The translations under genes were made by a program, and so were the position numbers. Below are positions 1,076 to 39,458 of a DNA stretch of 64,000 nt, one piece after another. Where the stretch lies: sequence record LC768462.1; one strand, written 5' to 3'. The notes under the pieces are model-generated. The model was not told the origin of the DNA. It searched no databases and worked only from the letters and a program-made list of their open reading frames with translations. The stretch comes from Escherichia phage phiEc_1. The stretch's first letter is position 1. Each line of letters starts with the position of its first letter.

Positions 1076-1104
1076 TTGACACCGGAAAAAGCCTGATATA
1101 TAGT
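1076..1104 (+). promoter_or_regulatory. strong sigma70-type promoter (TTGACA-N17-TATAGT)
   Basis: Consensus -35, 17-bp spacer, near-consensus -10. Confidence 0.7.
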
Positions 1105-1134
1105 GAGCATAGTCAGCGATGACTTAAAAAATCC

Positions 1135-1148
1135 CGCTCTTTAAAAAT
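1135..1148 (+). promoter_or_regulatory. boxA-like antitermination element
   Basis: CGCTCTTTAAAAAT, about 25 nt downstream of predicted start site of promoter 1076-1104. Confidence 0.55.
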
Positions 1149-1406
1149 ATGATTTGTCTTACGGGTGGCGGCGACGTCATTACTATAAGGCGCTCAGTTA
1201 ATTGGTAGAATTGATTCCTGATTCATACGTGACGCAGGCGGACAATAAGCAATATCAATAAGCCTTATTTGTTCGATACTTTCAAAAGATTAATGCTTGA
1301 AAGCGCACTAGATTCCCTGAAAGACAAATCAGACTTATCATCTTGCCCTTTCGCATAGATTCACGCGAGATAAGGGAAAGGAATTAAAAGAAGATGATAA
1401 AAAGAG

Positions 1407-1435
1407 TTGCAAACGTGGTTAAAGTAGTCCATACT
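1407..1435 (+). promoter_or_regulatory. sigma70-type promoter (TTGCAA-N17-CATACT), weaker
   Basis: Hexamers and spacing read directly. Confidence 0.35.
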
Positions 1436-1594
1436 AACCACAAGTTAGCAAAACATCGCTAACTAGTTCCCAAATCAACGTATCGCGGGAAAGGTGGCAC
1501 ATAGTGCAGCGATTAGTTCAGGTGTAGGCGGCCTGTTAATGAATCAGTAAGCCTTCAATGTGACAGTGATTAGCAGACACTTTAAAAGGCTAAA

Positions 1595-1608
1595 CGCTCT
1601 TTAACAAT
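1595..1608 (+). promoter_or_regulatory. boxA-like antitermination element
   Basis: CGCTCTTTAACAAT; 12/12 match to rrn boxA core GCTCTTTAACAA. Confidence 0.6.
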
Positions 1609-1708
1609 ATGAGTCATAAGTTAAGCCTCACCGCTTAATCTTCAATCAAATAAAGCTGATTGATATATCCTCCCAATAGCGGGAACGACGAAAAAGATTA
1701 AAAAGCGG

Positions 1709-1737
1709 TTGACAGCGAAAACAACATGATTCATAAT
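1709..1737 (+). promoter_or_regulatory. strong sigma70-type promoter (TTGACA-N17-CATAAT)
   Basis: Consensus -35, 17-bp spacer, 5/6 -10. Confidence 0.65.
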
Positions 1738-5047: not shown

Positions 5048-5782
5048 ATGAAAGCAATTGTATTATCCTCAATCCTAGCTCTGTCCGTAATGGCATCGCC
5101 TGTTTTTGCTAAAAGTGGAAACAATGGCAATGGCAATGGAGGTTGTGGTGTAGGTCAATCTACCAATGGTTGCGGTATCGGAGATTGGTTTAAAGGTGAA
5201 AAAGGTGATCAGGGAGAGAAAGGCGACACTGGCGCTAATGGCATTGATGGTAAAGATGGCATTGATGGTAAAGATGGCATTGATGGTAAAGATGGCATTG
5301 ATGGTAAAGATGGCATTGATGGAGAACAAGGCGCTCAAGGTGAAAAAGGTGATTCTGGTGCAGATGGTAAGAAAGGCGAAACTGGCCTAACTGGTGCAGC
5401 AGGTTTGAATGGCGTTGACGGATTAAATGGCAAAAACGGTAAAGATGCAGATATGTCTGCCGTTAATGCTAACGCCAAATCCATCAAAGCTCTGGAACAA
5501 TCCACCAATAAACGTTTTGCTTCTTTGCAAAAACAAGTAGACCGTAACCGTGATCATGCCTCTGCTGGTATTTCTGGCGTGGCTGCAATGGCTAACATCC
5601 CGCAAGTAAGTCAAGGATCTGCTTTCTCTGTTGGTGCTGGGGTAGGTGCTTACGATGGTGAATCTGCTCTTGCTATTGGTGTTAGTGCTCGTTTCAATGA
5701 AAACTTAGTAACTAAAGCATCAGTGGCAATGACTTCAGAGAGTGACGCTGTTCTGGGCGCTGGTGTAAGTTACGAGTGGTAA
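5048..5782 (+). CDS. trimeric-autotransporter-like protein: signal peptide, collagen-like Gly-X-Y stalk, YadA-type C-terminal anchor
   Basis: Signal peptide MKAIVLSSILALSVMASPVFA; ~30 Gly-X-Y triplets; C-terminus ...GISGVAAMANIPQV...LAIGVSARFNENLVTKASVA...GAGVSYEW matches YadA anchor pattern. Confidence 0.7.
   Translation: MKAIVLSSILALSVMASPVFAKSGNNGNGNGGCGVGQSTNGCGIGDWFKGEKGDQGEKGDTGANGIDGKDGIDGKDGIDGKDGIDGKDGIDGEQGAQGEKGDSGADGKKGETGLTGAAGLNGVDGLNGKNGKDADMSAVNANAKSIKALEQSTNKRFASLQKQVDRNRDHASAGISGVAAMANIPQVSQGSAFSVGAGVGAYDGESALAIGVSARFNENLVTKASVAMTSESDAVLGAGVSYEW
5240..5323 (+). repeat. perfect 18-bp tandem repeat (GGCATTGATGGTAAAGAT, about 4.6 copies) encoding GIDGKD
   Basis: Identical copies at 5240, 5258, 5276, 5294 plus a partial copy. 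Confidence 0.9.
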
Positions 5783-5892: not shown

Positions 5893-6282
5893 ATGTTGAC
5901 ATTGACTATTTATTATGAGGCAGGGAATCAGCCAACCGCATGTAAGGCTTTAGTTGCGGATACCGTGATAAATAGAATGGCCCAACGAAAACTGACCGCT
6001 GAACAGGTGATAAGACAGAAGAACCAGTTTGAGTGGATTCCGGTACTATTAAAACAGGAGAAACCTTATAAACGTTATGTAAAGCTGATTCGTGATAAAA
6101 ATCCGATGACTAAGCAAGCCATTGGAGAAAGCGAGCGACTTGCTAAACGTGCCCTTAAGAAGAATTATGTTCCGCTGTACAGTGGGACTTACTTTCAGAG
6201 TAAGAGCGAAGGGGTGCCAAAATGGTATGCCAATCCTATGTATTGTGGTGATTTAGTGTTCGATAATAGCTCTAGGGAATAA
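5893..6282 (+). CDS. SleB/CwlJ-like cell-wall hydrolase domain protein
   Basis: TIYYEAGNQP...VADTVINRM...QFEW resembles Hydrolase_2 motifs; start uncertain (see findings). Confidence 0.5.
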   Translation: MLTLTIYYEAGNQPTACKALVADTVINRMAQRKLTAEQVIRQKNQFEWIPVLLKQEKPYKRYVKLIRDKNPMTKQAIGESERLAKRALKKNYVPLYSGTYFQSKSEGVPKWYANPMYCGDLVFDNSSRE

Positions 6283-6482: not shown

Positions 6483-6779
6483 ATGACTTTAGAAGTATAT
6501 AAATTCCTTTTTGTAAGCTGTTTAACTATCAGCGTTATAGGATTTATTGTTCTCAGAAACAAAGCAGCAAGCTGGGAAAGAATGTATAAATCCCTAGTTC
6601 GAGTGGATGAGATGTATAATGAGAAAGTTAAAGTAACACTCAACGATCTTATTATGCAAGTTGAAGACAGAAATAAGCGTCTTCAGAACCTCAACCATGA
6701 AGTATTACGACTTGCTCGTGCTAATGAAGACTTACGAGTGGCTATTGCTAAGCAGCAGGAGATTAACAGTGAAAGTTAA
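6483..6779 (+). CDS. membrane-anchored coiled-coil protein
   Basis: ORF track; N-terminal TM segment then heptad-rich region. Confidence 0.5.
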   Translation: MTLEVYKFLFVSCLTISVIGFIVLRNKAASWERMYKSLVRVDEMYNEKVKVTLNDLIMQVEDRNKRLQNLNHEVLRLARANEDLRVAIAKQQEINSES

Positions 6780-7005
6780 TATTAAATCCGATCGTACAAT
6801 GCTTCGCTTAAATAACATGAAGCCGGGCGTTCTATTTGAGCGTAAAGACTCTCTTTATATTAGAACCGACACACTATACGCAGATAACTATGTGAACTGT
6901 GTTGATGTGGTAACTGGAAAGCTCATGCCTTTTAAACGGGATGAAGTCTGCCAAGTACGTAGTGATCTTCACATAACCAACATAGAGGCTAAAGATGAAG
7001 ATTGA
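6769..7005 (+). CDS. small early protein, paralog family A
   Basis: GTG 6769 with AGGAG 8 nt upstream; shares G-x-F ... N/V-x-x-G ... P pattern with seven other ORFs. Confidence 0.5.
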   Translation: MKVNIKSDRTMLRLNNMKPGVLFERKDSLYIRTDTLYADNYVNCVDVVTGKLMPFKRDEVCQVRSDLHITNIEAKDED

Positions 7006-7246
7006 TCTTGAGATGAAAGCTAAAGAATTGTGTGTGGGTGATTTGAAACTTGGTGATGTATTCCAAGTTAAGGCAACATGTATTGATTATTACATGATCG
7101 TTCAGTTATATACACCACATGTGTCAGAGACTGATCTTCGGAATGGTTGTGTAGTGCTCAGTTTAAGCACCAATCAAGTAATGAAGCTAGATTCAAACTT
7201 ACCTGTTTCAGTTATCCATGATGCAGTAATTACCAATCGGAAGTGA
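6995..7246 (+). CDS. small early protein, paralog family A
   Basis: ORF track; family pattern. Confidence 0.5.
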   Translation: MKIDLEMKAKELCVGDLKLGDVFQVKATCIDYYMIVQLYTPHVSETDLRNGCVVLSLSTNQVMKLDSNLPVSVIHDAVITNRK

Positions 7247-7461
7247 ATATGAACATTGAAAAGAAGGTTGTTGACGAGGCTGTTCAGTTACGATCTCTTG
7301 AAACACATGATGTATTTGTGTGGGGAGGCAGTCTGTTTCAGAAATCTGCTTATGCTGTAGAGGGCGGGGTTCGTTGTTTTAATATCTTCAACAATGAGAT
7401 GCAAATCCTTCCTAACTTCGCTCATGTTAATAAACTTATCCACCTTTCTATATATCAATAA
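7243..7461 (+). CDS. small early protein, paralog family A (divergent)
   Basis: ORF track; ATGA overlap. Confidence 0.45.
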   Translation: MNMNIEKKVVDEAVQLRSLETHDVFVWGGSLFQKSAYAVEGGVRCFNIFNNEMQILPNFAHVNKLIHLSIYQ

Positions 7462-7471
7462 GGGCAATTAG

Positions 7472-7690
7472 ATGGAAATTAAAGTAGTTGATTATCCTAA
7501 ATATGCAAATGCAGAGGACGTTAAAGGTGGTGATGTTTTCTCTTATGATAAACGTTTCTGGCTGATGCTAGAAGATAAAACCCCTGATGGTTTGTGTAAG
7601 GCTGCTAACTTGAGCAGTGGTTCTGTTGAAGTCTTCGGTCTATCAACCACTGTTATGCCACGACCTGATCTGTGTTTATCCCAAAAGTAA
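7472..7690 (+). CDS. small early protein, paralog family A
   Basis: ORF track; GGDVF...FW...NLSSGSV...MPRPD. Confidence 0.55.
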   Translation: MEIKVVDYPKYANAEDVKGGDVFSYDKRFWLMLEDKTPDGLCKAANLSSGSVEVFGLSTTVMPRPDLCLSQK

Positions 7691-8048
7691 CACCGACTTA
7701 TAGCCCTTGTGTTTATCAGAGGGCTATGTGAGGGTGTTCCTCATTAACTTATTAATTCAGGCATATGCCACACCGCTAGGGAGAGCTTGCTCGAACATCC
7801 GGTGTTAGACTAAAACCTGTTAATTTTCGAAAGACTTTCCGATATGTAGGGGTACGTATTGGTTTGGGATTCAGGAGACTTCCTAGGGGTAGGGAGTCTT
7901 CACCAGTTGGAATAAGAGATAGCTCTAGAACCTGAACTCTTAGGCAGAGAAGGTCGGCAATGAGTACGCGGTCAGGGTTAGTCTACTGACTAGGGCTATC
8001 CCTTATATCAACTGGCAATAATGCCTCCACTAACAAAGAGAGATAGGT

Positions 8049-8189
8049 ATGAAAGTATCAACCAAACGTATGAACCGCCCTGAACGTATGGATGCAGTAG
8101 CTAATGGTGCTCTGAAACTGGAAGGCTTTTGGATTCATGCAATGTCAGCCATCCGTAACAAGCAAGGTAATTGGACGTATAACAGTTAA
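8049..8189 (+). CDS. small protein (46 aa)
   Basis: ATG 8049 to TAA 8187-8189, immediately followed by a terminator; below ORF-track size cutoff. Confidence 0.35.
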   Translation: MKVSTKRMNRPERMDAVANGALKLEGFWIHAMSAIRNKQGNWTYNS

Positions 8190-8197
8190 TAAATAAA

Positions 8198-8227
8198 AGG
8201 CTGCCTTCGGGTGGCCTTTGTTGTTTT
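8198..8227 (+). terminator. rho-independent terminator (UUCG loop)
   Basis: AGGCTGCC-TTCG-GGTGGCCT then TTGTTGTTTT. Confidence 0.7.
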
Positions 8228-8270
8228 AATTAAGGGACAACTCTTACTTAAACTAACAAGAGGTGCTTAT

Positions 8271-8624
8271 ATGAGACGCATGGTTAAAGATTGGGTCACT
8301 AAATCAGGTCTTCGTGCTGTGATTATGCACATGAACGACTCCCATTTTTGTGGATATGTAGAGCTACCAGACAGCTTAAAACATAAAAACTTCACCGGAT
8401 ATAACGGAAAGGAAGAGGTTTGTTATGTAAGTGTTCATGGTGGTGTCACATGGCAAGACACCCTTGAAGAGATGGGTGGTTTAGATACAATCGGATTTGA
8501 TTGTGCCCATGCAGGTGATAAGACACGGTTCAACCCTAACGGGATACCAAGAACAGAAGAGTTCTGCGTTAATGAATGCGAACAATTGGCTGAACAACTA
8601 AGAGATCTAGAATCAAATGTCTAA
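8271..8624 (+). CDS. hypothetical protein
   Basis: ORF track frame; ATG 8271 with AAGAGGTG upstream (track start at 8211 lies inside terminator). Confidence 0.55.
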   Translation: MRRMVKDWVTKSGLRAVIMHMNDSHFCGYVELPDSLKHKNFTGYNGKEEVCYVSVHGGVTWQDTLEEMGGLDTIGFDCAHAGDKTRFNPNGIPRTEEFCVNECEQLAEQLRDLESNV

Positions 8625-8793
8625 GCAAATAATCAAACATACGCAAGCTGGTTACTCTTATGTCAACTCTCCTTGCTGCGGTGCTCGTATTAGTCTGGTT
8701 AAGGAAGAGGTTCGTATTGTTCAGCGTGGCGCTACTGTTGTTCGTTCATGCTGTGTCTGTGGTAATGACATTTTTATCAAAGGTAAAGTATGA
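8617..8793 (+). CDS. small Cys-rich (zinc-ribbon-like) protein
   Basis: 58 codons; CC...CCxC pairs; overlaps neighbours. Confidence 0.4.
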   Translation: MSKQIIKHTQAGYSYVNSPCCGARISLVKEEVRIVQRGATVVRSCCVCGNDIFIKGKV

Positions 8794-9041
8794 AAAACTT
8801 CCAAGCTGCACCAATCACTAAAGTGATCGAAGTTGATGGTATAATGATGACTGTTCCTCTGAACACTCGTTACATTGCAATTGACAAGATGGGTTATGTA
8901 TGGGCTTGGAAGATCAAGCCTAGTTATAACGCATTGTTTGATGAGTTTGTTTGTACTGGAACTTACAGTCCCACATTCTTAGGTTTATTTGGAGAATTTG
9001 ATGGTAAGCATAAAATCATCACACTCCCTGCTTGTGCTTGA
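8790..9041 (+). CDS. hypothetical protein
   Basis: ORF track; ATGA overlap. Confidence 0.5.
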   Translation: MKNFQAAPITKVIEVDGIMMTVPLNTRYIAIDKMGYVWAWKIKPSYNALFDEFVCTGTYSPTFLGLFGEFDGKHKIITLPACA

Positions 9042-9048
9042 GGTTAAT

Positions 9049-9282
9049 ATGAAAGGAAAAGAGGTTAAATATTTTGGCGAAGTTGTTAAAGTGGACAGCT
9101 CTATAAGATATTTAGCAACTGATAGCAACGGCGAGGTATATGGGTTTACCCATAAGCCAGAAATTCGTGGGTATGCTTGGGCACTTCCTTATGGGACTCC
9201 GTTCGAGACGGGAGGAGCTGTTTATCTTAACGATAATGGACCTCTGTTTGCATGGAAAACATCTCTCGTTGAGGTGGTGTAA
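9049..9282 (+). CDS. hypothetical protein
   Basis: ORF track frame; ATG 9049 after GAGG. Confidence 0.5.
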   Translation: MKGKEVKYFGEVVKVDSSIRYLATDSNGEVYGFTHKPEIRGYAWALPYGTPFETGGAVYLNDNGPLFAWKTSLVEVV

Positions 9283-9284
9283 TT

Positions 9285-9449
9285 ATGTTCAAGTGGTTTA
9301 AACGTCTATTCCATCTGCATGATTGGGAGACAATAAAAGAAATTCGTTTACACATATATAATGAGATCGGTCAAATAGAAGACACAGGTACTCGTTATAT
9401 ACTTCGATGTAAAACATGTGGTCATATCACCAAACGAGATATGATCTAA
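9285..9449 (+). CDS. small protein with C-terminal CxxC
   Basis: GAGGTGG SD then ATG 9285; 54 codons. Confidence 0.4.
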   Translation: MFKWFKRLFHLHDWETIKEIRLHIYNEIGQIEDTGTRYILRCKTCGHITKRDMI

Positions 9450-9456
9450 ATCTTAT

Positions 9457-9532
9457 GCGCTCTTAGCTCAATGGATAGAGCAGTAGCCTTCTAAGCTATT
9501 GGTTACAGGTTCGAGTCCTGTAGGGCGCACCA
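9457..9532 (+). tRNA. tRNA-Arg(UCU): tRNA-Arg (anticodon UCU, reads AGA), encoded CCA
   Basis: Cloverleaf folded by hand: 7-bp acceptor stem, D stem GCTC/GAGC, anticodon loop CTTCTAA, T arm ACAGG-TTCGAGT-CCTGT, discriminator A, CCA. Confidence 0.9.
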
Positions 9533-9551
9533 AATCTAATAGGAGGTAATT

Positions 9552-9851
9552 ATGAGTTGGGGTGGTGTAATATCCTTAATCTGTATCTTCCTTGTCTGCA
9601 TAGCCCTTACAGGCTGCGTACAGAGCCGTCCTGATGGATGGTGTGCAGTAGCAGTGGAAGGTGTTTGTGTTTCTCGCTGGCATAAGGGTGAGAAGATTCC
9701 TTCTGGTGAAATTGATATGCGATGGAACGGAGCAACCTGTTCTAATGCTAACCCTTCTATCAACGAAGAGAAGTCTACACCGGATAATGTTGTTATTGAT
9801 ACAGCATTGTGGTGTGGTGGCTCTACGATTACAACCGGTAAGGAGTGGTGA
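9552..9851 (+). CDS. lipoprotein (Cys-rich)
   Basis: AGGAGG SD; signal peptide with lipobox LTGC (LICIFLVCIALTGC). Confidence 0.65.
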   Translation: MSWGGVISLICIFLVCIALTGCVQSRPDGWCAVAVEGVCVSRWHKGEKIPSGEIDMRWNGATCSNANPSINEEKSTPDNVVIDTALWCGGSTITTGKEW

Positions 9852-9852
9852 T

Positions 9853-10050
9853 ATGAATTACACATCTACAAAGGTGTTAATTGATTCGATTAATAACTCC
9901 TCAGAAACTGTACAGGAGCGTTTAATACAAGATGTTAGCAATGACATTAAGTTCTTTGTTAAGAGCCGCCTGTTAGGTTCTAAGGCTTATTACAGAGCTA
10001 AAGCAGAGCTTACAAAGAGGATGTTTCTTTTACATGGTTTGGTATATTAA
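9853..10050 (+). CDS. hypothetical protein
   Basis: ATG 9853 with AAGGAG upstream; same frame as track ORF 9661..10050 but non-overlapping start. Confidence 0.5.
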   Translation: MNYTSTKVLIDSINNSSETVQERLIQDVSNDIKFFVKSRLLGSKAYYRAKAELTKRMFLLHGLVY

Positions 10051-10059
10051 GGAACTTAT

Positions 10060-10281
10060 ATGAAACTAGACTCTAAGCAGTCACTTAAAACTGTTGAATT
10101 GTCCACGCTGCCAAACGGAAGTATTTTTGGTCATGATAAACACTTCTGGATTAAAACAGACATCATAGACGATGGATATATCACCTGTGTCAATCTTTGG
10201 AACGGCTCAGTGGATGGCTATCGCCCTAGTGCAAAAGTAGTCCCTCAGCCTGATGCAAAGGCTACAGGTTTAGTTTACTAA
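10060..10281 (+). CDS. small early protein, paralog family A
   Basis: ORF track; PNGSIF...FW...NLWNGSV...VPQPD. Confidence 0.55.
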   Translation: MKLDSKQSLKTVELSTLPNGSIFGHDKHFWIKTDIIDDGYITCVNLWNGSVDGYRPSAKVVPQPDAKATGLVY

Positions 10282-10290
10282 GGAGCCTGT

Positions 10291-10464
10291 ATGAGTTGTT
10301 TTGGTGGCGGTGAAGTAGATGACGATGATGACATGGAATCCAACGGTACATGTCCTGATTGTGGATGTGAGACGTTTGATGGGGTGTCTGTTTATCCTGC
10401 CTGTAGTTACTCACCAGTGATCTGTAAAACATGTGGTGATCAGCCGTGTGACCAATCTTGTTAA
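10291..10464 (+). CDS. small acidic Cys-rich (zinc-ribbon-like) protein
   Basis: AAGGAG SD; CPDCGC...CKTCGD. Confidence 0.4.
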   Translation: MSCFGGGEVDDDDDMESNGTCPDCGCETFDGVSVYPACSYSPVICKTCGDQPCDQSC

Positions 10465-10473
10465 GAGAATCTT

Positions 10474-10605
10474 ATGACTGAAGAATTTTTAGAGTGGTTT
10501 GGGAACACCTTCAAAGATTATCTATTCTCTCCAGAAGACTTTGAAGAACTGAAAACCTACACTTGGTTGGCTTGGAGAGATAGCCGACGAAAGTTGAACA
10601 AGTAA
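10474..10605 (+). CDS. small protein (43 aa)
   Basis: Short ORF between neighbours; weak support. Confidence 0.25.
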   Translation: MTEEFLEWFGNTFKDYLFSPEDFEELKTYTWLAWRDSRRKLNK

Positions 10606-10616
10606 GAGACGATTAA

Positions 10617-10874
10617 ATGGGTTTACTTGATATTTTTATCTCAGTTTACTTTATTGGAGTATTCCTTTCTGTCTTAGTGATGAAACTGCTATACAAGAAA
10701 GGTCTACTAAAAGGGGTCATTACAACAGGGTCTACCAGCTCTGAACCTGATGAGATGATGGTTGTTCTCTTAATTGTGTTGTGGCCTATCTCAATACTGT
10801 CAGGAGTTTTTTATCCAATAGGTTGGCTTCTGTTTAAAGCATATGATGCAGTTATGCATTTTATCTTTAAGTAA
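10617..10874 (+). CDS. membrane protein (two TM helices)
   Basis: ORF track; two hydrophobic segments. Confidence 0.55.
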   Translation: MGLLDIFISVYFIGVFLSVLVMKLLYKKGLLKGVITTGSTSSEPDEMMVVLLIVLWPISILSGVFYPIGWLLFKAYDAVMHFIFK

Positions 10875-11164
10875 TATCGTGAAGGATTCTTACGAGAGTC
10901 CTTTGAGATAGGACTTCAGATCTCCTATCAAACTAACATTCATGTAACTAGCCCATAAGGGCGTTACCCTTTAATAACCCAGCCCACTAAGGGGGCGGGA
11001 GTTTAGTGCTGGATTAGCATAACGCTTATTCCTACAAAGGCAACCGATTGTTAGATCTTACATGCAATATTAACTAATAGGATAAGGGAGGATTCGTCCC
11101 CTCCCCCTATTTTATTGAATCTTTATCTAAGCAAGTCTTATATAAACGTTTAATTGGAGGATGT

Positions 11165-11476
11165 ATGAAAGCACGAAGAACTATATGGACTCCGATGCAG
11201 ATTGAAAATCTTCGGAGACTGATCAAAGAGTACTCGGTTCAAGAAGTTGCTCAGATTATGAATGTAACGGAGAATGCTGTTAACACAGCTTGCACTAAAT
11301 TCGGAATATCAAGAGCTTCAATCCGAGTCAAGTGGTCTAAAGAAGAAGATCAGTTCCTTATCCGTAATGCCGGGTTTATGTCTATTCAGAGAATGGCTGA
11401 CATGCTTGGTAGAAGTTATGCTGCTGTACAGAACAGGGCATGTATGCACCTTAATATTAGCCTCAAACTTAAATAG
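11165..11476 (+). CDS. DNA-binding protein with two tandem HTH-like repeats
   Basis: Internal repeat W-[ST]-x-E-x-[LI]...S...A...G-[RI]-S. Confidence 0.5.
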   Translation: MKARRTIWTPMQIENLRRLIKEYSVQEVAQIMNVTENAVNTACTKFGISRASIRVKWSKEEDQFLIRNAGFMSIQRMADMLGRSYAAVQNRACMHLNISLKLK

Positions 11477-11484
11477 GAATCAAT

Positions 11485-11733
11485 ATGAAGATTACTCACA
11501 AGAAAGAAGAAGTGTCCACGGTTGATATCAACTCTCTTCCTAGTGGAGCAGTATTTAAATTCCCTGAGAGTTCTACTCTCTATGTCAAAGGGTCTGTGTC
11601 TGAAAGTCCTAATGTAACCGTTAACTCCGATCGAGCAATCACTCTTCGTCTATCTGATGGTAACGTAACAGCCCCTTCTATCTGGTGCCGAGTTGTCCCT
11701 GTATCGGCAGAACTTTTGGTGGATAATACATAA
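11485..11733 (+). CDS. small early protein, paralog family A
   Basis: ORF track; family pattern. Confidence 0.55.
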   Translation: MKITHKKEEVSTVDINSLPSGAVFKFPESSTLYVKGSVSESPNVTVNSDRAITLRLSDGNVTAPSIWCRVVPVSAELLVDNT

Positions 11734-11978
11734 TGAAAATCATCCCAAAGAAAAAGGATAATACGGTTCGATTGGAAACAATCATTCCCGGAAACCCCTT
11801 CGTAGTTCAGCACGGAAGTGCCTCTCCTCAGTATTATATGAGGGTTGAAAATGCTTCTGGTAACATCCGTATAGCCAGTGGCTGGGTTCCTGTAGTAAAT
11901 CTATCCACAGGTGCACTGTCTGTTAAAGGTCTTGATGATCAGGTAGAAATGATTCGTATGTCTGTGGTTCAGGAGTGA
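11733..11978 (+). CDS. small early protein, paralog family A
   Basis: ORF track; family pattern. Confidence 0.55.
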   Translation: MKIIPKKKDNTVRLETIIPGNPFVVQHGSASPQYYMRVENASGNIRIASGWVPVVNLSTGALSVKGLDDQVEMIRMSVVQE

Positions 11979-12226
11979 GAATGAGCACGATACATATTAA
12001 GGTTCACAACAAAGAAAAAAAGAAACTCTTTGTTAAAGATCTGTCAACCGCTGACATCTTTACTTTAAAAGATGATGACAGTCAGGTCATTTATTTGATG
12101 ATGCCTCTATCTGGTGGATATCGCAGAGCAGTTAATTTAGGTACAGGCGAACCTCGTCCTGTTTCTGACACTCTTGAAGTTGGCGAGAAGTTTGCCAAAG
12201 CAGAGATCATCTTAACTCCGATGTAA
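11975..12226 (+). CDS. small early protein, paralog family A
   Basis: ORF track; family pattern. Confidence 0.55.
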   Translation: MRMSTIHIKVHNKEKKKLFVKDLSTADIFTLKDDDSQVIYLMMPLSGGYRRAVNLGTGEPRPVSDTLEVGEKFAKAEIILTPM

Positions 12227-32807: not shown

Positions 32808-32816
32808 TAATGTATA
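32808..32816 (+). promoter_or_regulatory. candidate phage-sigma promoter element (TAATGTATA)
   Basis: Exact 9-mer 37 bp upstream of ATG 32853. Confidence 0.45.
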
Positions 32817-38980: not shown

Positions 38981-39458
38981 AGAACCTGTAGTACATAAAG
39001 ACTCTATCAGAGATCAATATAATGAGATGTTAAAGAAACAAGCTGATTCTAATCTTCGTTATCAGAGGATAGTAGAACAATCTAACTTTAAAGGTTTACT
39101 TGAATGGTAACTTATATTGTTTACTTCTTAGCTTTCTTAGGAATAATCTTTTTATCTATTCTTATTGAATTTGGTTTAAGTAAGTTAGTTAATTATTTAG
39201 GTAATAAGTAATTATTATTCTTTTAAATAGAGAATCAAAGTCCCTAGGAGTCCCTACAACCTAAATCAAGGATTCCTTAATTCTCTATTTTTATCTCGCA
39301 GGTGGCTCCTGCCCTTCGGTACTTGCAAGGGATTCTGTGAATTGCCCAATATACAAGCCTGCAATAACTTTATCAGCTATACAATATATACATTACTAGT
39401 GTGTTATATCTACTACCAAAGATACTTATATTATATAGTACTCTTATCGGTATAAGCG

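What the first reader, a model, noticed from the sequence alone, without database searches (positions are those of the whole stretch)
6769..12226. Eight-member paralogous family of about 75-aa early proteins
ORFs at 6769, 6995, 7243, 7472, 10060, 11485, 11733 and 11975 share a recognisable scaffold, for example L-P-x-G-x-[IV]-F, an aromatic pair such as FW, then N-L-x-[ST]-G-[ES]-V and V-x-P-x-P-D. They occur in two tandem runs with overlapping or abutting stop/start codons. Tandemly diversified small early proteins are typical of host-takeover or anti-defence arsenals, where each copy may target a different host variant.
Basis: seen in the sequence. Interest (0 to 1): 0.5.

Follow-up and report, generated by a model that had tools for sequence, protein, structure and literature searches.

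The report
Eight paralogous small phage barrel proteins
The eight small early genes really are one protein family, a tiny SH3-like beta-barrel found in more than a thousand phage protein clusters (including coliphage N4 gp21 and Pseudomonas phage LUZ24 gp7), but nobody knows what it does, and the anti-defence idea is still untested.

Summary
The window comes from a phiEco32-like E. coli podophage (Kuravirus, Gordonclarkvirinae). All eight ORFs exist and are arranged 4 + 1 + 3 on the + strand, downstream of sigma-70 early promoters.

They form one family:
- Each held-out member ranks first of about 640 window ORFs in a leave-one-out HMM test.
- An HMM built only from 118 non-Kuravirus metagenomic relatives hits all eight over their full length (27-67 bits; shuffled copies reach at most 14 bits).

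Two AlphaFold models, the second made from a sub-alignment of only three of the paralog groups, give the same small SH3/Tudor/KOW-like beta-barrel.

The family is very large: 1,420 clusters at 50% identity, almost all stand-alone proteins of 65-90 aa. It has no Pfam, NCBIfam or PDB match and no literature. Members include N4 gp21, LUZ24 gp7, PaP3 ORF.65 and phiEco32 gp95-97/104/113-115.

Copy number runs from 3 to 11 among related phages. Every orthologue group is under purifying selection (dN/dS 0.08-0.24). The paralogs are old (15-40% identity), not recently diversified. LUZ24 gp7 was non-toxic in a published screen.

My best reading, held with low confidence, is that they are non-enzymatic binder modules, each with its own partner, acting on host factors early in infection. 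Function is unproven. Interest is moderate.

The parts
6769..7005 (+). Family member 1 (78 aa, GTG start; orthologue of phiEco32 gp115; phrog_16423)
   Evidence: ORF and ribosome-binding site GGAG. Scores 62.5 bits against the outgroup-only HMM. Orthologues in 8 of 11 genomes, dN/dS 0.135.
6995..7246 (+). Family member 2 (83 aa; orthologue of phiEco32 gp114; phrog_9955). Overlaps member 1 by 11 nt.
   Evidence: Scores 42.5 bits against the outgroup HMM. Leave-one-out E 5e-6. Present in 8 of 11 genomes, dN/dS 0.24.
7243..7461 (+). Family member 3 (72 aa from GTG 7243, more likely 70 aa from ATG 7249; phrog_33163). The least conserved member: found in only 3 of 11 genomes and absent from phiEco32.
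   Evidence: Scores 33.6 bits against the outgroup HMM. hhalign to the 10060 group gives 79% probability, E 1.5e-5. Leave-one-out E 0.016, still rank 1.
7472..7690 (+). Family member 4 (72 aa; orthologue of phiEco32 gp113; phrog_6570)
   Evidence: 40% identical to member 5. Scores 51.5 bits against the outgroup HMM. Present in 8 of 11 genomes, dN/dS 0.16.
10060..10281 (+). Family member 5, a singleton (73 aa; orthologue of phiEco32 gp104; phrog_6570). The most central and most widely kept member.
   Evidence: Leave-one-out E 2.8e-10. Scores 67.5 bits. AlphaFold model with pLDDT 82, a five-strand beta-barrel. Present in 10 of 11 genomes, including a Salmonella phage of the Grimontviridae.
11485..11733 (+). 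Family member 6 (82 aa; orthologue of phiEco32 gp97; phrog_7832). First gene after the tandem-HTH regulator gene.
   Evidence: Scores 41.8 bits against the outgroup HMM. Its nearest paralog is the extra copy that sits next to it in Bas90, SR02 and Ptacy1479. Present in 7 of 11 genomes, dN/dS 0.165.
11733..11978 (+). Family member 7 (81 aa; orthologue of phiEco32 gp96; phrog_7431). Its start overlaps the stop of member 6 (TAATG).
   Evidence: Scores 40.9 bits against the outgroup HMM. Leave-one-out E 3.4e-7. Present in 9 of 11 genomes, dN/dS 0.087.
11975..12226 (+). Family member 8 (83 aa from GTG 11975, more likely 81 aa from ATG 11981, which has an AGGAG ribosome-binding site; orthologue of phiEco32 gp95; phrog_12612)
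   Evidence: Scores 27.5 bits against the outgroup HMM; shuffles reach at most 7.2 bits. AlphaFold model from a sub-alignment of three paralog groups, pLDDT 80, all-beta. Its structural neighbours overlap those of member 5. Present in 9 of 11 genomes, dN/dS 0.20.
1076..1737 (+). Context: cluster of sigma-70 promoter matches (TTGACA-17-TATAGT at 1076-1104; TTGACA-17-CATAAT at 1709-1737). It probably corresponds to the early promoters mapped in phiEco32.
   Evidence: Consensus scan. Early promoters lie at the start of the early cluster in phiEco32 and SU10 (PMC8948821, PMC4281155). This is inferred by position and was not tested in this phage.

Best explanation
SHOWN. The eight ORFs are genuine genes under purifying selection. 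They encode paralogous single-domain proteins of 70-83 aa with a small SH3-like (Tudor/KOW-like) beta-barrel. They belong to one very large, uncharacterised family found almost entirely in phages. Its members include N4 gp21, LUZ24 gp7, PaP3 ORF.65 and phiEco32 gp95-97, gp104 and gp113-115. Members often occur in several tandem copies or as two-domain fusions.

INFERRED from homology with phiEco32 and from promoter positions. The genes are transcribed by host sigma-70 RNA polymerase from the early promoters as part of one long + strand early block. Within each run translation is probably coupled.

INFERRED mechanism, low confidence. The domain has no catalytic motif. The positions conserved across the family are few and are mainly glycines and hydrophobic residues (L-x-x-G-[DS]-[VI]-F, the Y/F-h-K-T strand, C/A-V-N-L-x-T-G, V-x-P-V, and the terminal MKI and ELxI strands). 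That they are turn and core positions is my inference from residue type; I did not map conservation onto the models. Everything else differs between paralogs but is conserved within each orthologue group. This is the pattern expected of a stable scaffold that works by stoichiometric binding, with each paralog having its own partner. I therefore think the proteins are small early-expressed binders that modulate or neutralise particular host proteins, possibly including defence components, without being lethal on their own. The set a phage carries would then be an exchangeable accessory repertoire.
For: Family and fold:
- PHROG cross-hits between members.
- Leave-one-out HMMs, held-out member always rank 1.
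- The outgroup-only HMM finds all eight.
- Shuffle control.
- Outgroup proteins hit 5-7 of the Kuravirus PHROG families at once.
- AlphaFold models with pLDDT 82 and 80, the second from a sub-alignment of three paralog groups.
- Both models retrieve the same set of full-length 70-87 aa uncharacterised phage proteins in BFVD.

Real genes: dN/dS is 0.08-0.24 in every orthologue group, and the ORFs have ribosome-binding sites.

Early expression.

Breadth:
- 1,420 clusters at 50% identity, almost all stand-alone.
- N4 gp21 matches at E 3e-16, LUZ24 gp7 at 2e-10 and PaP3 ORF.65 at 1.5e-8.

Accessory repertoire:
- 3 to 11 copies per genome and 26 groups at 50% identity among 11 genomes.
- Phage LAMP is viable with only 3 copies.

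Binder reading:
- There is no enzyme-family hit.
- Stand-alone SH3-like structural neighbours are protein-binding modules. Examples are the VapX antitoxin, FeoA, HspQ, KapB, and the RNA-polymerase-binding Tudor domains of UvrD and CarD.
- The members are neutral to mildly acidic: window pI 4.9-9.2, outgroup median 5.1.
- LUZ24 gp7 was non-toxic when expressed alone (PMC4635203).
- 11 of the top 150 relatives are two-domain fusions, and tandem arrays occur in an unrelated low-GC contig.
Against: - No partner, phenotype or binding has been measured for any member. The binder reading comes from fold and conservation pattern only.
- I could not map conservation onto the models, because no coordinates were available to me.
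- The only clear cellular occurrence is a repeat array fused to a SprT-like protease, an enzyme type that depends on DNA. This points towards nucleic-acid binding.
- Purifying selection and ancient divergence are not the classic signature of counter-defence arms races.
- The non-toxicity result comes from a Pseudomonas homologue about 20-25% identical to the window proteins.
- Gordonclarkvirinae resistance to restriction may equally be due to a DNA modification, as the BASEL authors suggest (PMC11990801).
Confidence: 0.4

Rival explanations
1. The proteins are small nucleic-acid-binding barrels, in the manner of KOW, Tudor, Sm or cold-shock domains. They would bind phage or host RNA or DNA and so tune transcription, translation or DNA metabolism early in infection.
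For: - The same domain occurs five times in tandem, with strongly basic loops (KGEKKRTRY), behind a SprT-like metalloprotease domain in a Tenacibaculum chromosome.
- Two window members are basic, pI 9.0 and 9.2.
- Run 2 directly follows a tandem-HTH regulator gene.
Against: - Six of the eight window members, and about two thirds of the outgroup members, are neutral to acidic (median pI 5.1).
- The basic loop of the SprT-fused repeats is replaced by an acidic loop (for example TDEEDDNG) in the phage proteins.
- There is no sequence match to KOW, Tudor, S1 or CSD models.
Confidence: 0.2
2. The proteins serve the phage itself. They would act as adaptors or chaperones for phage proteins, for example the replication, DNA-modification or transcription-switch machinery, rather than targeting the host.
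For: - Purifying selection, and near-core conservation of three members in 9-10 of 11 genomes.
- LUZ24 gp7 is non-toxic.
- N4 gp21 lies among N4 middle and replication-region genes, not among the earliest genes.
- Di-domain fusions and tandem coupling would fit proteins that assemble with one another.
Against: - The members are lost and gained freely, and phage LAMP lacks the whole first run. That would be unexpected for parts of essential phage machinery.
- The same family occurs in phages with entirely different replication and transcription systems: N4-like, LUZ24-like, T4-like and Vibrio phages.
- No member was detected in the SU10 particle preparation.
Confidence: 0.15
3. The proteins are host shut-off or growth-arresting takeover toxins, like T7 Gp2 or LUZ24 Mip and gp9.
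For: They lie in the early takeover block and have the small size typical of such inhibitors.
Against: The LUZ24 member gp7 was among 13 early proteins expressed in P. aeruginosa, and only gp4, gp6, gp9 and gp11 impaired growth (PMC4635203). Eight to eleven copies of a general toxin would be redundant.
Confidence: 0.05
4. The resemblance is due to chance or composition, or the ORFs are non-functional remnants.
For: Several direct pairwise comparisons are insignificant: BLASTP E above 0.1 and hhalign probability below 10%.
Against: - Leave-one-out test, outgroup HMM and shuffle control.
- Concordant models, the second from a sub-alignment of three paralog groups.
- dN/dS of 0.08-0.24 with dS up to 1.8.
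Confidence: 0.02

Closest known systems
Uncharacterised small proteins of model phages: N4 gp21, LUZ24 gp7, PaP3 ORF.65, phiEco32 gp95-98/gp104/gp113-115 (PHROGs 6570, 7832, 7431, 8365, 16423, 9955, 12612, 33163)
   Same: They are sequence-level members of the same family, full-length and colinear. They have the same length and the same predicted fold, and they lie in early or middle regions of virulent phages.
   Different: - None has a known function, so the link transfers only one fact: LUZ24 gp7 is non-toxic.
- N4 (in the first 22 kb scanned), PaP3 and LUZ24 each carry a single clear copy, whereas this phage group carries 3-11.
- PHROGs splits the family into at least eight unlinked groups, and Pfam and NCBIfam have no model for it.
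Stand-alone SH3-like small beta-barrel binders: VapX antitoxin (6zn8), FeoA (3e19), HspQ (5ycq), KapB (1y71), and the UvrD C-terminal and CarD Tudor-like RNA-polymerase-binding domains (7egs, 4l5g)
   Different: Sequence identity is only 8-18% and no profile match exists. The similarity is at the level of fold, so common ancestry and a shared function are unproven.
Ribosomal uL2 C-terminal, EF-P/eIF5A N-terminal and Spt5 KOW, Tudor domains
   Different: Those domains are parts of larger proteins that bind RNA, the ribosome or methyl-lysine and methyl-arginine. The phage proteins lack their signature motifs and are mostly acidic.
Multi-copy accessory gene sets in phage early regions (anti-CRISPR/anti-defence loci, T4 hyperplastic regions, T5 pre-early genes); this comparison rests on my general knowledge
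   Same: They consist of small ORFs, expressed early, with variable presence or absence between close relatives, and tightly packed co-directional genes.
   Different: Anti-defence loci usually hold unrelated proteins. Here a single fold is reused up to 11 times per genome. No member matches a known anti-defence protein, and no marker gene (aca-like or similar) was identified.

Membership tests
The uncharacterised phage family itself (PHROG 6570/7832/7431/8365/16423/9955/12612/33163 superfamily) | Significant full-length, colinear profile match of each ORF to profiles built without it | tested here: met
   Leave-one-out test: rank 1, E 3e-10 to 0.016. Outgroup-only HMM: E 3e-20 to 1e-7, 27-67 bits, against at most 14 bits for shuffles. 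PHROG cross-hits.
The uncharacterised phage family itself | Same predicted fold in divergent members | tested here: met
   The model of 10060 (pLDDT 82) and the model of 11975 from a sub-alignment of three paralog groups (pLDDT 80) retrieve overlapping BFVD neighbours. The 11975 model also hits the NJ01 orthologue of 10060. I did not superpose the two models directly.
SH3-like small beta-barrel fold class (Tudor/KOW/uL2-C/EF-P-N) | Five-stranded, highly bent antiparallel barrel of about 60 residues | tested here: met
KOW / Tudor / SH3 homologous families (Pfam) | Sequence-profile match to the family models or their signature motifs | tested here: not met
   The eight ORFs and ten outgroup members have no Pfam hit at or above the curated threshold. 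NCBIfam gives none. The PDB sequence-profile search finds nothing below E 0.09.
Known anti-defence proteins (anti-CRISPR, Ocr/ArdA, Gad, Tad, Acb and others) | Homology to a characterised anti-defence protein | tested here: not met
   No Pfam, NCBIfam or PDB sequence hit. All structural neighbours in BFVD are uncharacterised. No dedicated anti-defence library was available.
Known anti-defence proteins | Relief of a defence system when expressed in trans | not testable with these tools
   This needs plating assays on strains carrying defence systems.
Host shut-off / growth-inhibitory early proteins | Growth inhibition when expressed alone in the host | tested here: not met
   This rests on literature for a homologue only. 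LUZ24 gp7 (family member at E 2e-10) was in the 13-gene screen, and only gp4, gp6, gp9 and gp11 were inhibitory (PMC4635203). The window proteins themselves have not been tested.
phiEco32 early expression class | Transcribed from sigma-70 early promoters and located before the first gp36-dependent promoter | tested here: inconclusive
   The position is consistent: strong promoter matches at 1076-1737 and no exact tAATGTAtA before 32808. The orthologues lie in the block reported as early (PMC8948821, PMC4281155, PMC9965538). No expression data exist for this phage, and I could not see per-gene macroarray data.

The most novel reading that the evidence does not exclude
The family would be a phage-borne 'binder scaffold' repertoire: one robust SH3-like barrel reused many times per genome, as separate genes, tandem arrays or fused di-domains. 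Each copy would present a different surface that neutralises a different host factor or immune component. Phages would then change host range by swapping copies. Neighbouring copies might also act as hetero-dimers, as the natural two-domain fusions suggest. This would be a new, very widespread class of counter-defence or host-modulation proteins, with N4 gp21 and LUZ24 gp7 as ready entry points in model systems.
Probability: 0.2. Interest if true: 0.75.

Novelty: new member of a known kind. Interest (0 to 1): 0.4.

Why it matters
On its own, a set of paralogous small ORFs in a phage early region is ordinary. Three things add value.

1. At least eight separate 'unknown function' PHROG families collapse into one family. 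It has about 1,400 clusters at 50% identity and no Pfam model.
2. The family reaches three experimentally tractable model phages: N4, LUZ24/PaP3 and phiEco32/SkaterBoy.
3. Copy number expands from one in those phages to as many as eleven in Gordonclarkvirinae. The BASEL study reports that group as unusually resistant to restriction, with no known inhibitor.

If the proteins prove to be specific binders of host factors, the family would be a large, easily mined source of new host-modulating or anti-defence activities. If they bind nucleic acids or phage proteins, it would still be a common phage building block worth naming. Either way, this analysis supplies the alignment, the fold and the candidate genes for direct tests.

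Tried and rejected
- Pairwise BLASTP and hhalign between orthologue groups. Only a hub around 10060 and 7472 is significant, and many pairs are not. I therefore relied on leave-one-out and outgroup profiles.
- Searches for further members in the window. The recurring weak hit at 22766-23248 lies upstream of the real start of a GGCT-like gene and is spurious. No other window ORF qualifies.
- Pfam, NCBIfam and PDB sequence searches with single proteins and with the profile found nothing.
- P0123, a 1315-aa hit in the exhaustive search, is a cadherin-repeat protein. Its score is a sum over repeats, so I rejected it as a relative.
- The giant 1,920-3,223 aa proteins of high-GC phage-like contigs match only weakly per repeat (domain E 1e-9 to 0.8), so I treat them as possible, not proven, relatives.
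- The search for related loci with the diverse alignment failed because no stretch is conserved enough.
- tblastn with an outgroup member found almost nothing among isolate phages. The family consensus worked better.
- Genomic neighbourhoods of five outgroup members showed only unannotated small ORFs and one helicase, with no known anti-defence neighbours.
- PaP3 gp70.1, an RpoS-binding inhibitor that turned up in the literature search, is 131 aa and not a family member.
- SU10 particle proteomics lists no 8-9 kDa family member, which is weak evidence against a virion role.
- Literature searches for a description of this family, for N4 gp21 or for phiEco32 early-protein screens found nothing relevant.

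Full report
**Identity of the window.** The region 6400-12400 matches phiEco32-like E. coli podophages at 92-98% identity (Ec3-ASingh, DE5, SkaterBoy_Bas90, MN03). These belong to Kuravirus, Gordonclarkvirinae. The genes of the finding lie on the + strand in the block corresponding to phiEco32 genes 95-115.

**The observation.** All eight ORFs exist at the stated coordinates. Their lengths are 72-83 aa, and each has a plausible ribosome-binding site. Two starts are probably slightly downstream of those given:
- ATG 7249, as annotated in Bas90.
- ATG 11981, preceded by AGGAG.

The arrangement is a run of four (6769-7690), a singleton (10060-10281) and a run of three (11485-12226). Within the runs, stops and starts overlap or abut. 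The others carry a degenerate version. In the eight-way alignment only Phe23 and Val60 are invariant, and identities are 15-27%.

**Is it more than chance?** Direct pairwise tests are significant only around a hub: 10060-7472, 10060-6769 and 10060-7243. Many other pairs are not significant. Profile tests are decisive.
1. Each ORF hits its own PHROG family and also cross-hits those of other members, always colinear from residue 1, with E from 3e-8 to about 1e-2.
2. In leave-one-out HMMs the held-out ORF is the top hit among about 640 other window ORFs every time, E 3e-10 to 0.016.
3. An HMM built from 118 relatives that are not from Kuravirus-like phages finds all eight over their full length, E 3e-20 to 1e-7. 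The next ORF, at 1e-3, is a 21-residue match upstream of the true start of a GGCT-like gene and is spurious.
4. Real scores of 27.5-67.5 bits compare with at most 14.1 bits in 500 shuffles of each sequence.
5. Individual outgroup proteins hit five to seven of the Kuravirus PHROG families at once, which provides the intermediate links.

One caveat applies to point 3. The outgroup sequences were themselves found with a profile made from the eight. The leave-one-out and shuffle tests cover that circularity.

**Fold.**
- AlphaFold2 on 10060 with the family alignment gives pLDDT 82 and a five-strand beta structure.
- A second model, of 11975, used an alignment restricted to the 6995, 11733 and 11975 groups. 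It gives pLDDT 80 and the same central strands, plus paired N- and C-terminal strands.
- Both models retrieve overlapping sets of full-length 70-87 aa uncharacterised phage proteins in BFVD. The 11975 model also hits the NJ01 orthologue of 10060.

**Size and spread of the family.** A word-indexed search found only Kuravirus-type proteins. An exhaustive HMMER search of 1.84 billion cluster representatives found 1,420 clusters at E of 1e-3 or better, almost all 65-90 aa and matched end to end. Their consensus is MKI...v.l.dLk.GDvF...g.lYiKT...(loop)...CVnL.tGe.....d..V.Pv.aELvI.

Sequence-level members in model phages are:
- N4 gp21, E 3e-16.
- LUZ24 gp7, E 2e-10.
- PaP3 ORF.65, E 1.5e-8.

Structural and tblastn searches add N4-like Pseudomonas phages, large Vibrio phages, T4-like Erwinia and Pectobacterium phages, and Proteus, Klebsiella, Yersinia and Morganella phages. 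No Pfam, NCBIfam or PDB sequence match exists, and I found no paper describing the family.

Exceptions to the stand-alone pattern are informative:
- 11 of the top 150 representatives are two-domain tandem fusions.
- One 3.3-kb low-GC contig has two single-domain genes and one di-domain gene in a row after a helicase.
- A chromosomal Tenacibaculum protein has a SprT-like protease domain followed by five copies of the domain with very basic loops.
- Giant proteins of high-GC phage-like contigs match weakly and repeatedly.
- A cadherin-repeat protein among the hits is spurious.

**Evolution within the phage group.** I scanned the same roughly 13-kb region of ten relatives plus the window.

| Phage | Copies in region |
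|---|---|
| LAMP (reduced 68.5-kb genome, lacks run 1) | 3 |
| PAS59 | 6 |
| Salmonella phage PKM.Hi.22.6 | at least 6 |
| This window | 8 |
| MN05 | 8 |
| SR02 | 8 |
| phiEco32 | 9 |
| Bas90 | 10 |
| NJ01 | 10 |
| Ptacy1479 | 10 |
| EP335 | 11 |

These members fall into 26 groups at 50% identity.
- The 10060, 11733 and 11975 types are nearly core, present in 9-10 of 11 genomes.
- The 7243 type is present in only 3.
- Median dN/dS is 0.08-0.24 in every orthologue group, with dS up to about 1.8. These are functional genes under purifying selection.
- The nearest non-orthologous relative of several paralogs is an outgroup protein rather than a neighbour.
- Two cases look like old local duplications: the 11485 type with the extra copy next to it in Bas90, SR02 and Ptacy1479, and the 6995 type with an extra run-1 copy in Ptacy1479 and NJ01.

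The arrays are therefore ancient and are reshaped by gene gain and loss, not by recent diversification.

**Expression class.** In phiEco32 the right-hand cluster, transcribed opposite to the late genes, is experimentally early. It is driven by sigma-70 promoters at its start (PMC8948821, PMC4281155, PMC9965538). In the window, near-consensus promoter matches lie at 1076-1104 and 1709-1737. The first exact match to the phage-sigma promoter consensus tAATGTAtA on the + strand is at 32808. Early expression of the eight genes is thus a well-founded inference, but I could not verify it gene by gene.

**Function.** Nothing here measures function. These facts constrain it:
- The proteins are a single small barrel with no catalytic signature.
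- Few positions are conserved family-wide. They are mainly glycines and hydrophobic residues, which suggests turn and core positions. Each paralog is conserved in its own right.
- Charge is neutral to mildly acidic for most members.
- Stand-alone SH3-like barrels among the structural neighbours work as protein binders.
- LUZ24 gp7 was one of 13 early proteins expressed in P. aeruginosa. It was not among the four that impaired growth, nor among those that reduced biofilm formation (PMC4635203).
- Most copies are dispensable, as LAMP shows.
- No member was seen in the SU10 particle preparation.

The most economical reading is a repertoire of non-enzymatic, non-lethal binders, each with its own partner, probably host proteins. 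I give it about 0.4. Anti-defence is one attractive subset of that reading, because Gordonclarkvirinae are reported as unusually resistant to restriction-modification without known inhibitors (PMC11990801). However, no evidence specific to anti-defence was found.

**Comparison and novelty.** The genes are already deposited as hypothetical proteins and clustered piecemeal in PHROGs. Paralogous small early genes are a familiar kind of thing. What is new:
- The groups are unified into one large family without a Pfam model.
- The family has an SH3-like fold.
- The links to N4 gp21 and LUZ24 gp7.
- The documentation of 3-11-copy repertoires and di-domain fusions.

I classify it as a new member of a known kind, with moderate interest (0.4).

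**Side observation.** The ORF-free stretch at 7691-8048, immediately after run 1, is more conserved at the nucleotide level than the flanking genes across ten phages. It has a consensus structure of 81 pairs, 15 of them with compensatory changes. A 55-nt indel is confined to one hairpin. It folds with z = -3.5 and matches no Rfam family. It may be an undescribed structured RNA and deserves its own follow-up.

Noticed in passing
window 7691-8048 (+): An ORF-free stretch of about 358 nt directly after the first paralog run. Its nucleotide sequence is conserved across 10 Kuravirus and Nieuwekanaalvirus loci, more than the flanking genes. The RNAalifold consensus has 81 pairs, 15 of them with compensatory changes, and a 55-nt indel is confined to one hairpin. 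MFE is -121 kcal/mol, z = -3.5. There is no Rfam match at the gathering threshold or at E up to 1. It is a candidate undescribed structured phage RNA, or a DNA element.
   Followed up: partly
window 5051-5782 (+): An early-region gene encoding a signal peptide, collagen-like GxY repeats and a YadA-type outer-membrane anchor (Pfam Collagen 8.5e-17, YadA_anchor 2.4e-19). It is the counterpart of the phiEco32 gp119 'agglutinating adhesin'. This is a trimeric-autotransporter-like protein made early by a lytic phage. It might alter the cell surface or block superinfection.
   Followed up: no
window 8790-9041 and 9046-9282 (+): A second, unrelated pair of adjacent small paralogs sharing V..RY[IL]A.D..G.V[WY].[WF]..KP (BLASTP E 2e-4 over 35 aa). 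They have no Pfam hit.
   Followed up: partly
window 11165-11476 (+): The gene immediately upstream of run 2 encodes a 103-aa protein with two helix-turn-helix units resembling sigma-70 region 4 (Sigma70_r4_2, 1.6e-7). Relatives annotate it as a 'D5-like transcriptional regulator'. It keeps this position next to the run in all relatives examined except PAS59 and PKM.Hi.22.6.
   Followed up: no
window 5893-6282 (+): An early-region ORF with a SleB-type cell-wall hydrolase domain (Hydrolase_2, 1.7e-7). This is an unusual place for a murein hydrolase.
   Followed up: no
L006 3583-5019 / L007 8001-9437 (Tenacibaculum chromosome): A cellular protein with a SprT-like metalloprotease domain followed by five tandem copies of the same barrel domain, here with strongly basic loops. 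It sits among housekeeping genes. This is the only clear non-phage occurrence found, and a hint that the domain can act as a DNA-binding or substrate-binding module.
   Followed up: partly
L008 6481-16152 (high-GC phage-like contig): A 3,223-aa protein, together with 1,920-aa and 2,140-aa relatives, made largely of weakly matching repeats of an L.PGD.F...G..Y.V...........L.TGE type. They share a conserved N-terminal region containing HPRWPKGTP.GGQF. Their nature is unknown.
   Followed up: no
window 32808 (+), 39459 (+), 39387 (-), 49639 (-): Exact matches to the phiEco32 phage-sigma (gp36) promoter consensus TAATGTATA. They probably mark middle and late promoters. The divergent pair at 39387 and 39459 coincides with a dip in GC content (0.368).
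   Followed up: no
window 9457-9529 (+): A tRNA gene (Rfam tRNA, 72 bits), annotated as tRNA-Arg in relatives. It lies between the two parts of the family.
   Followed up: no
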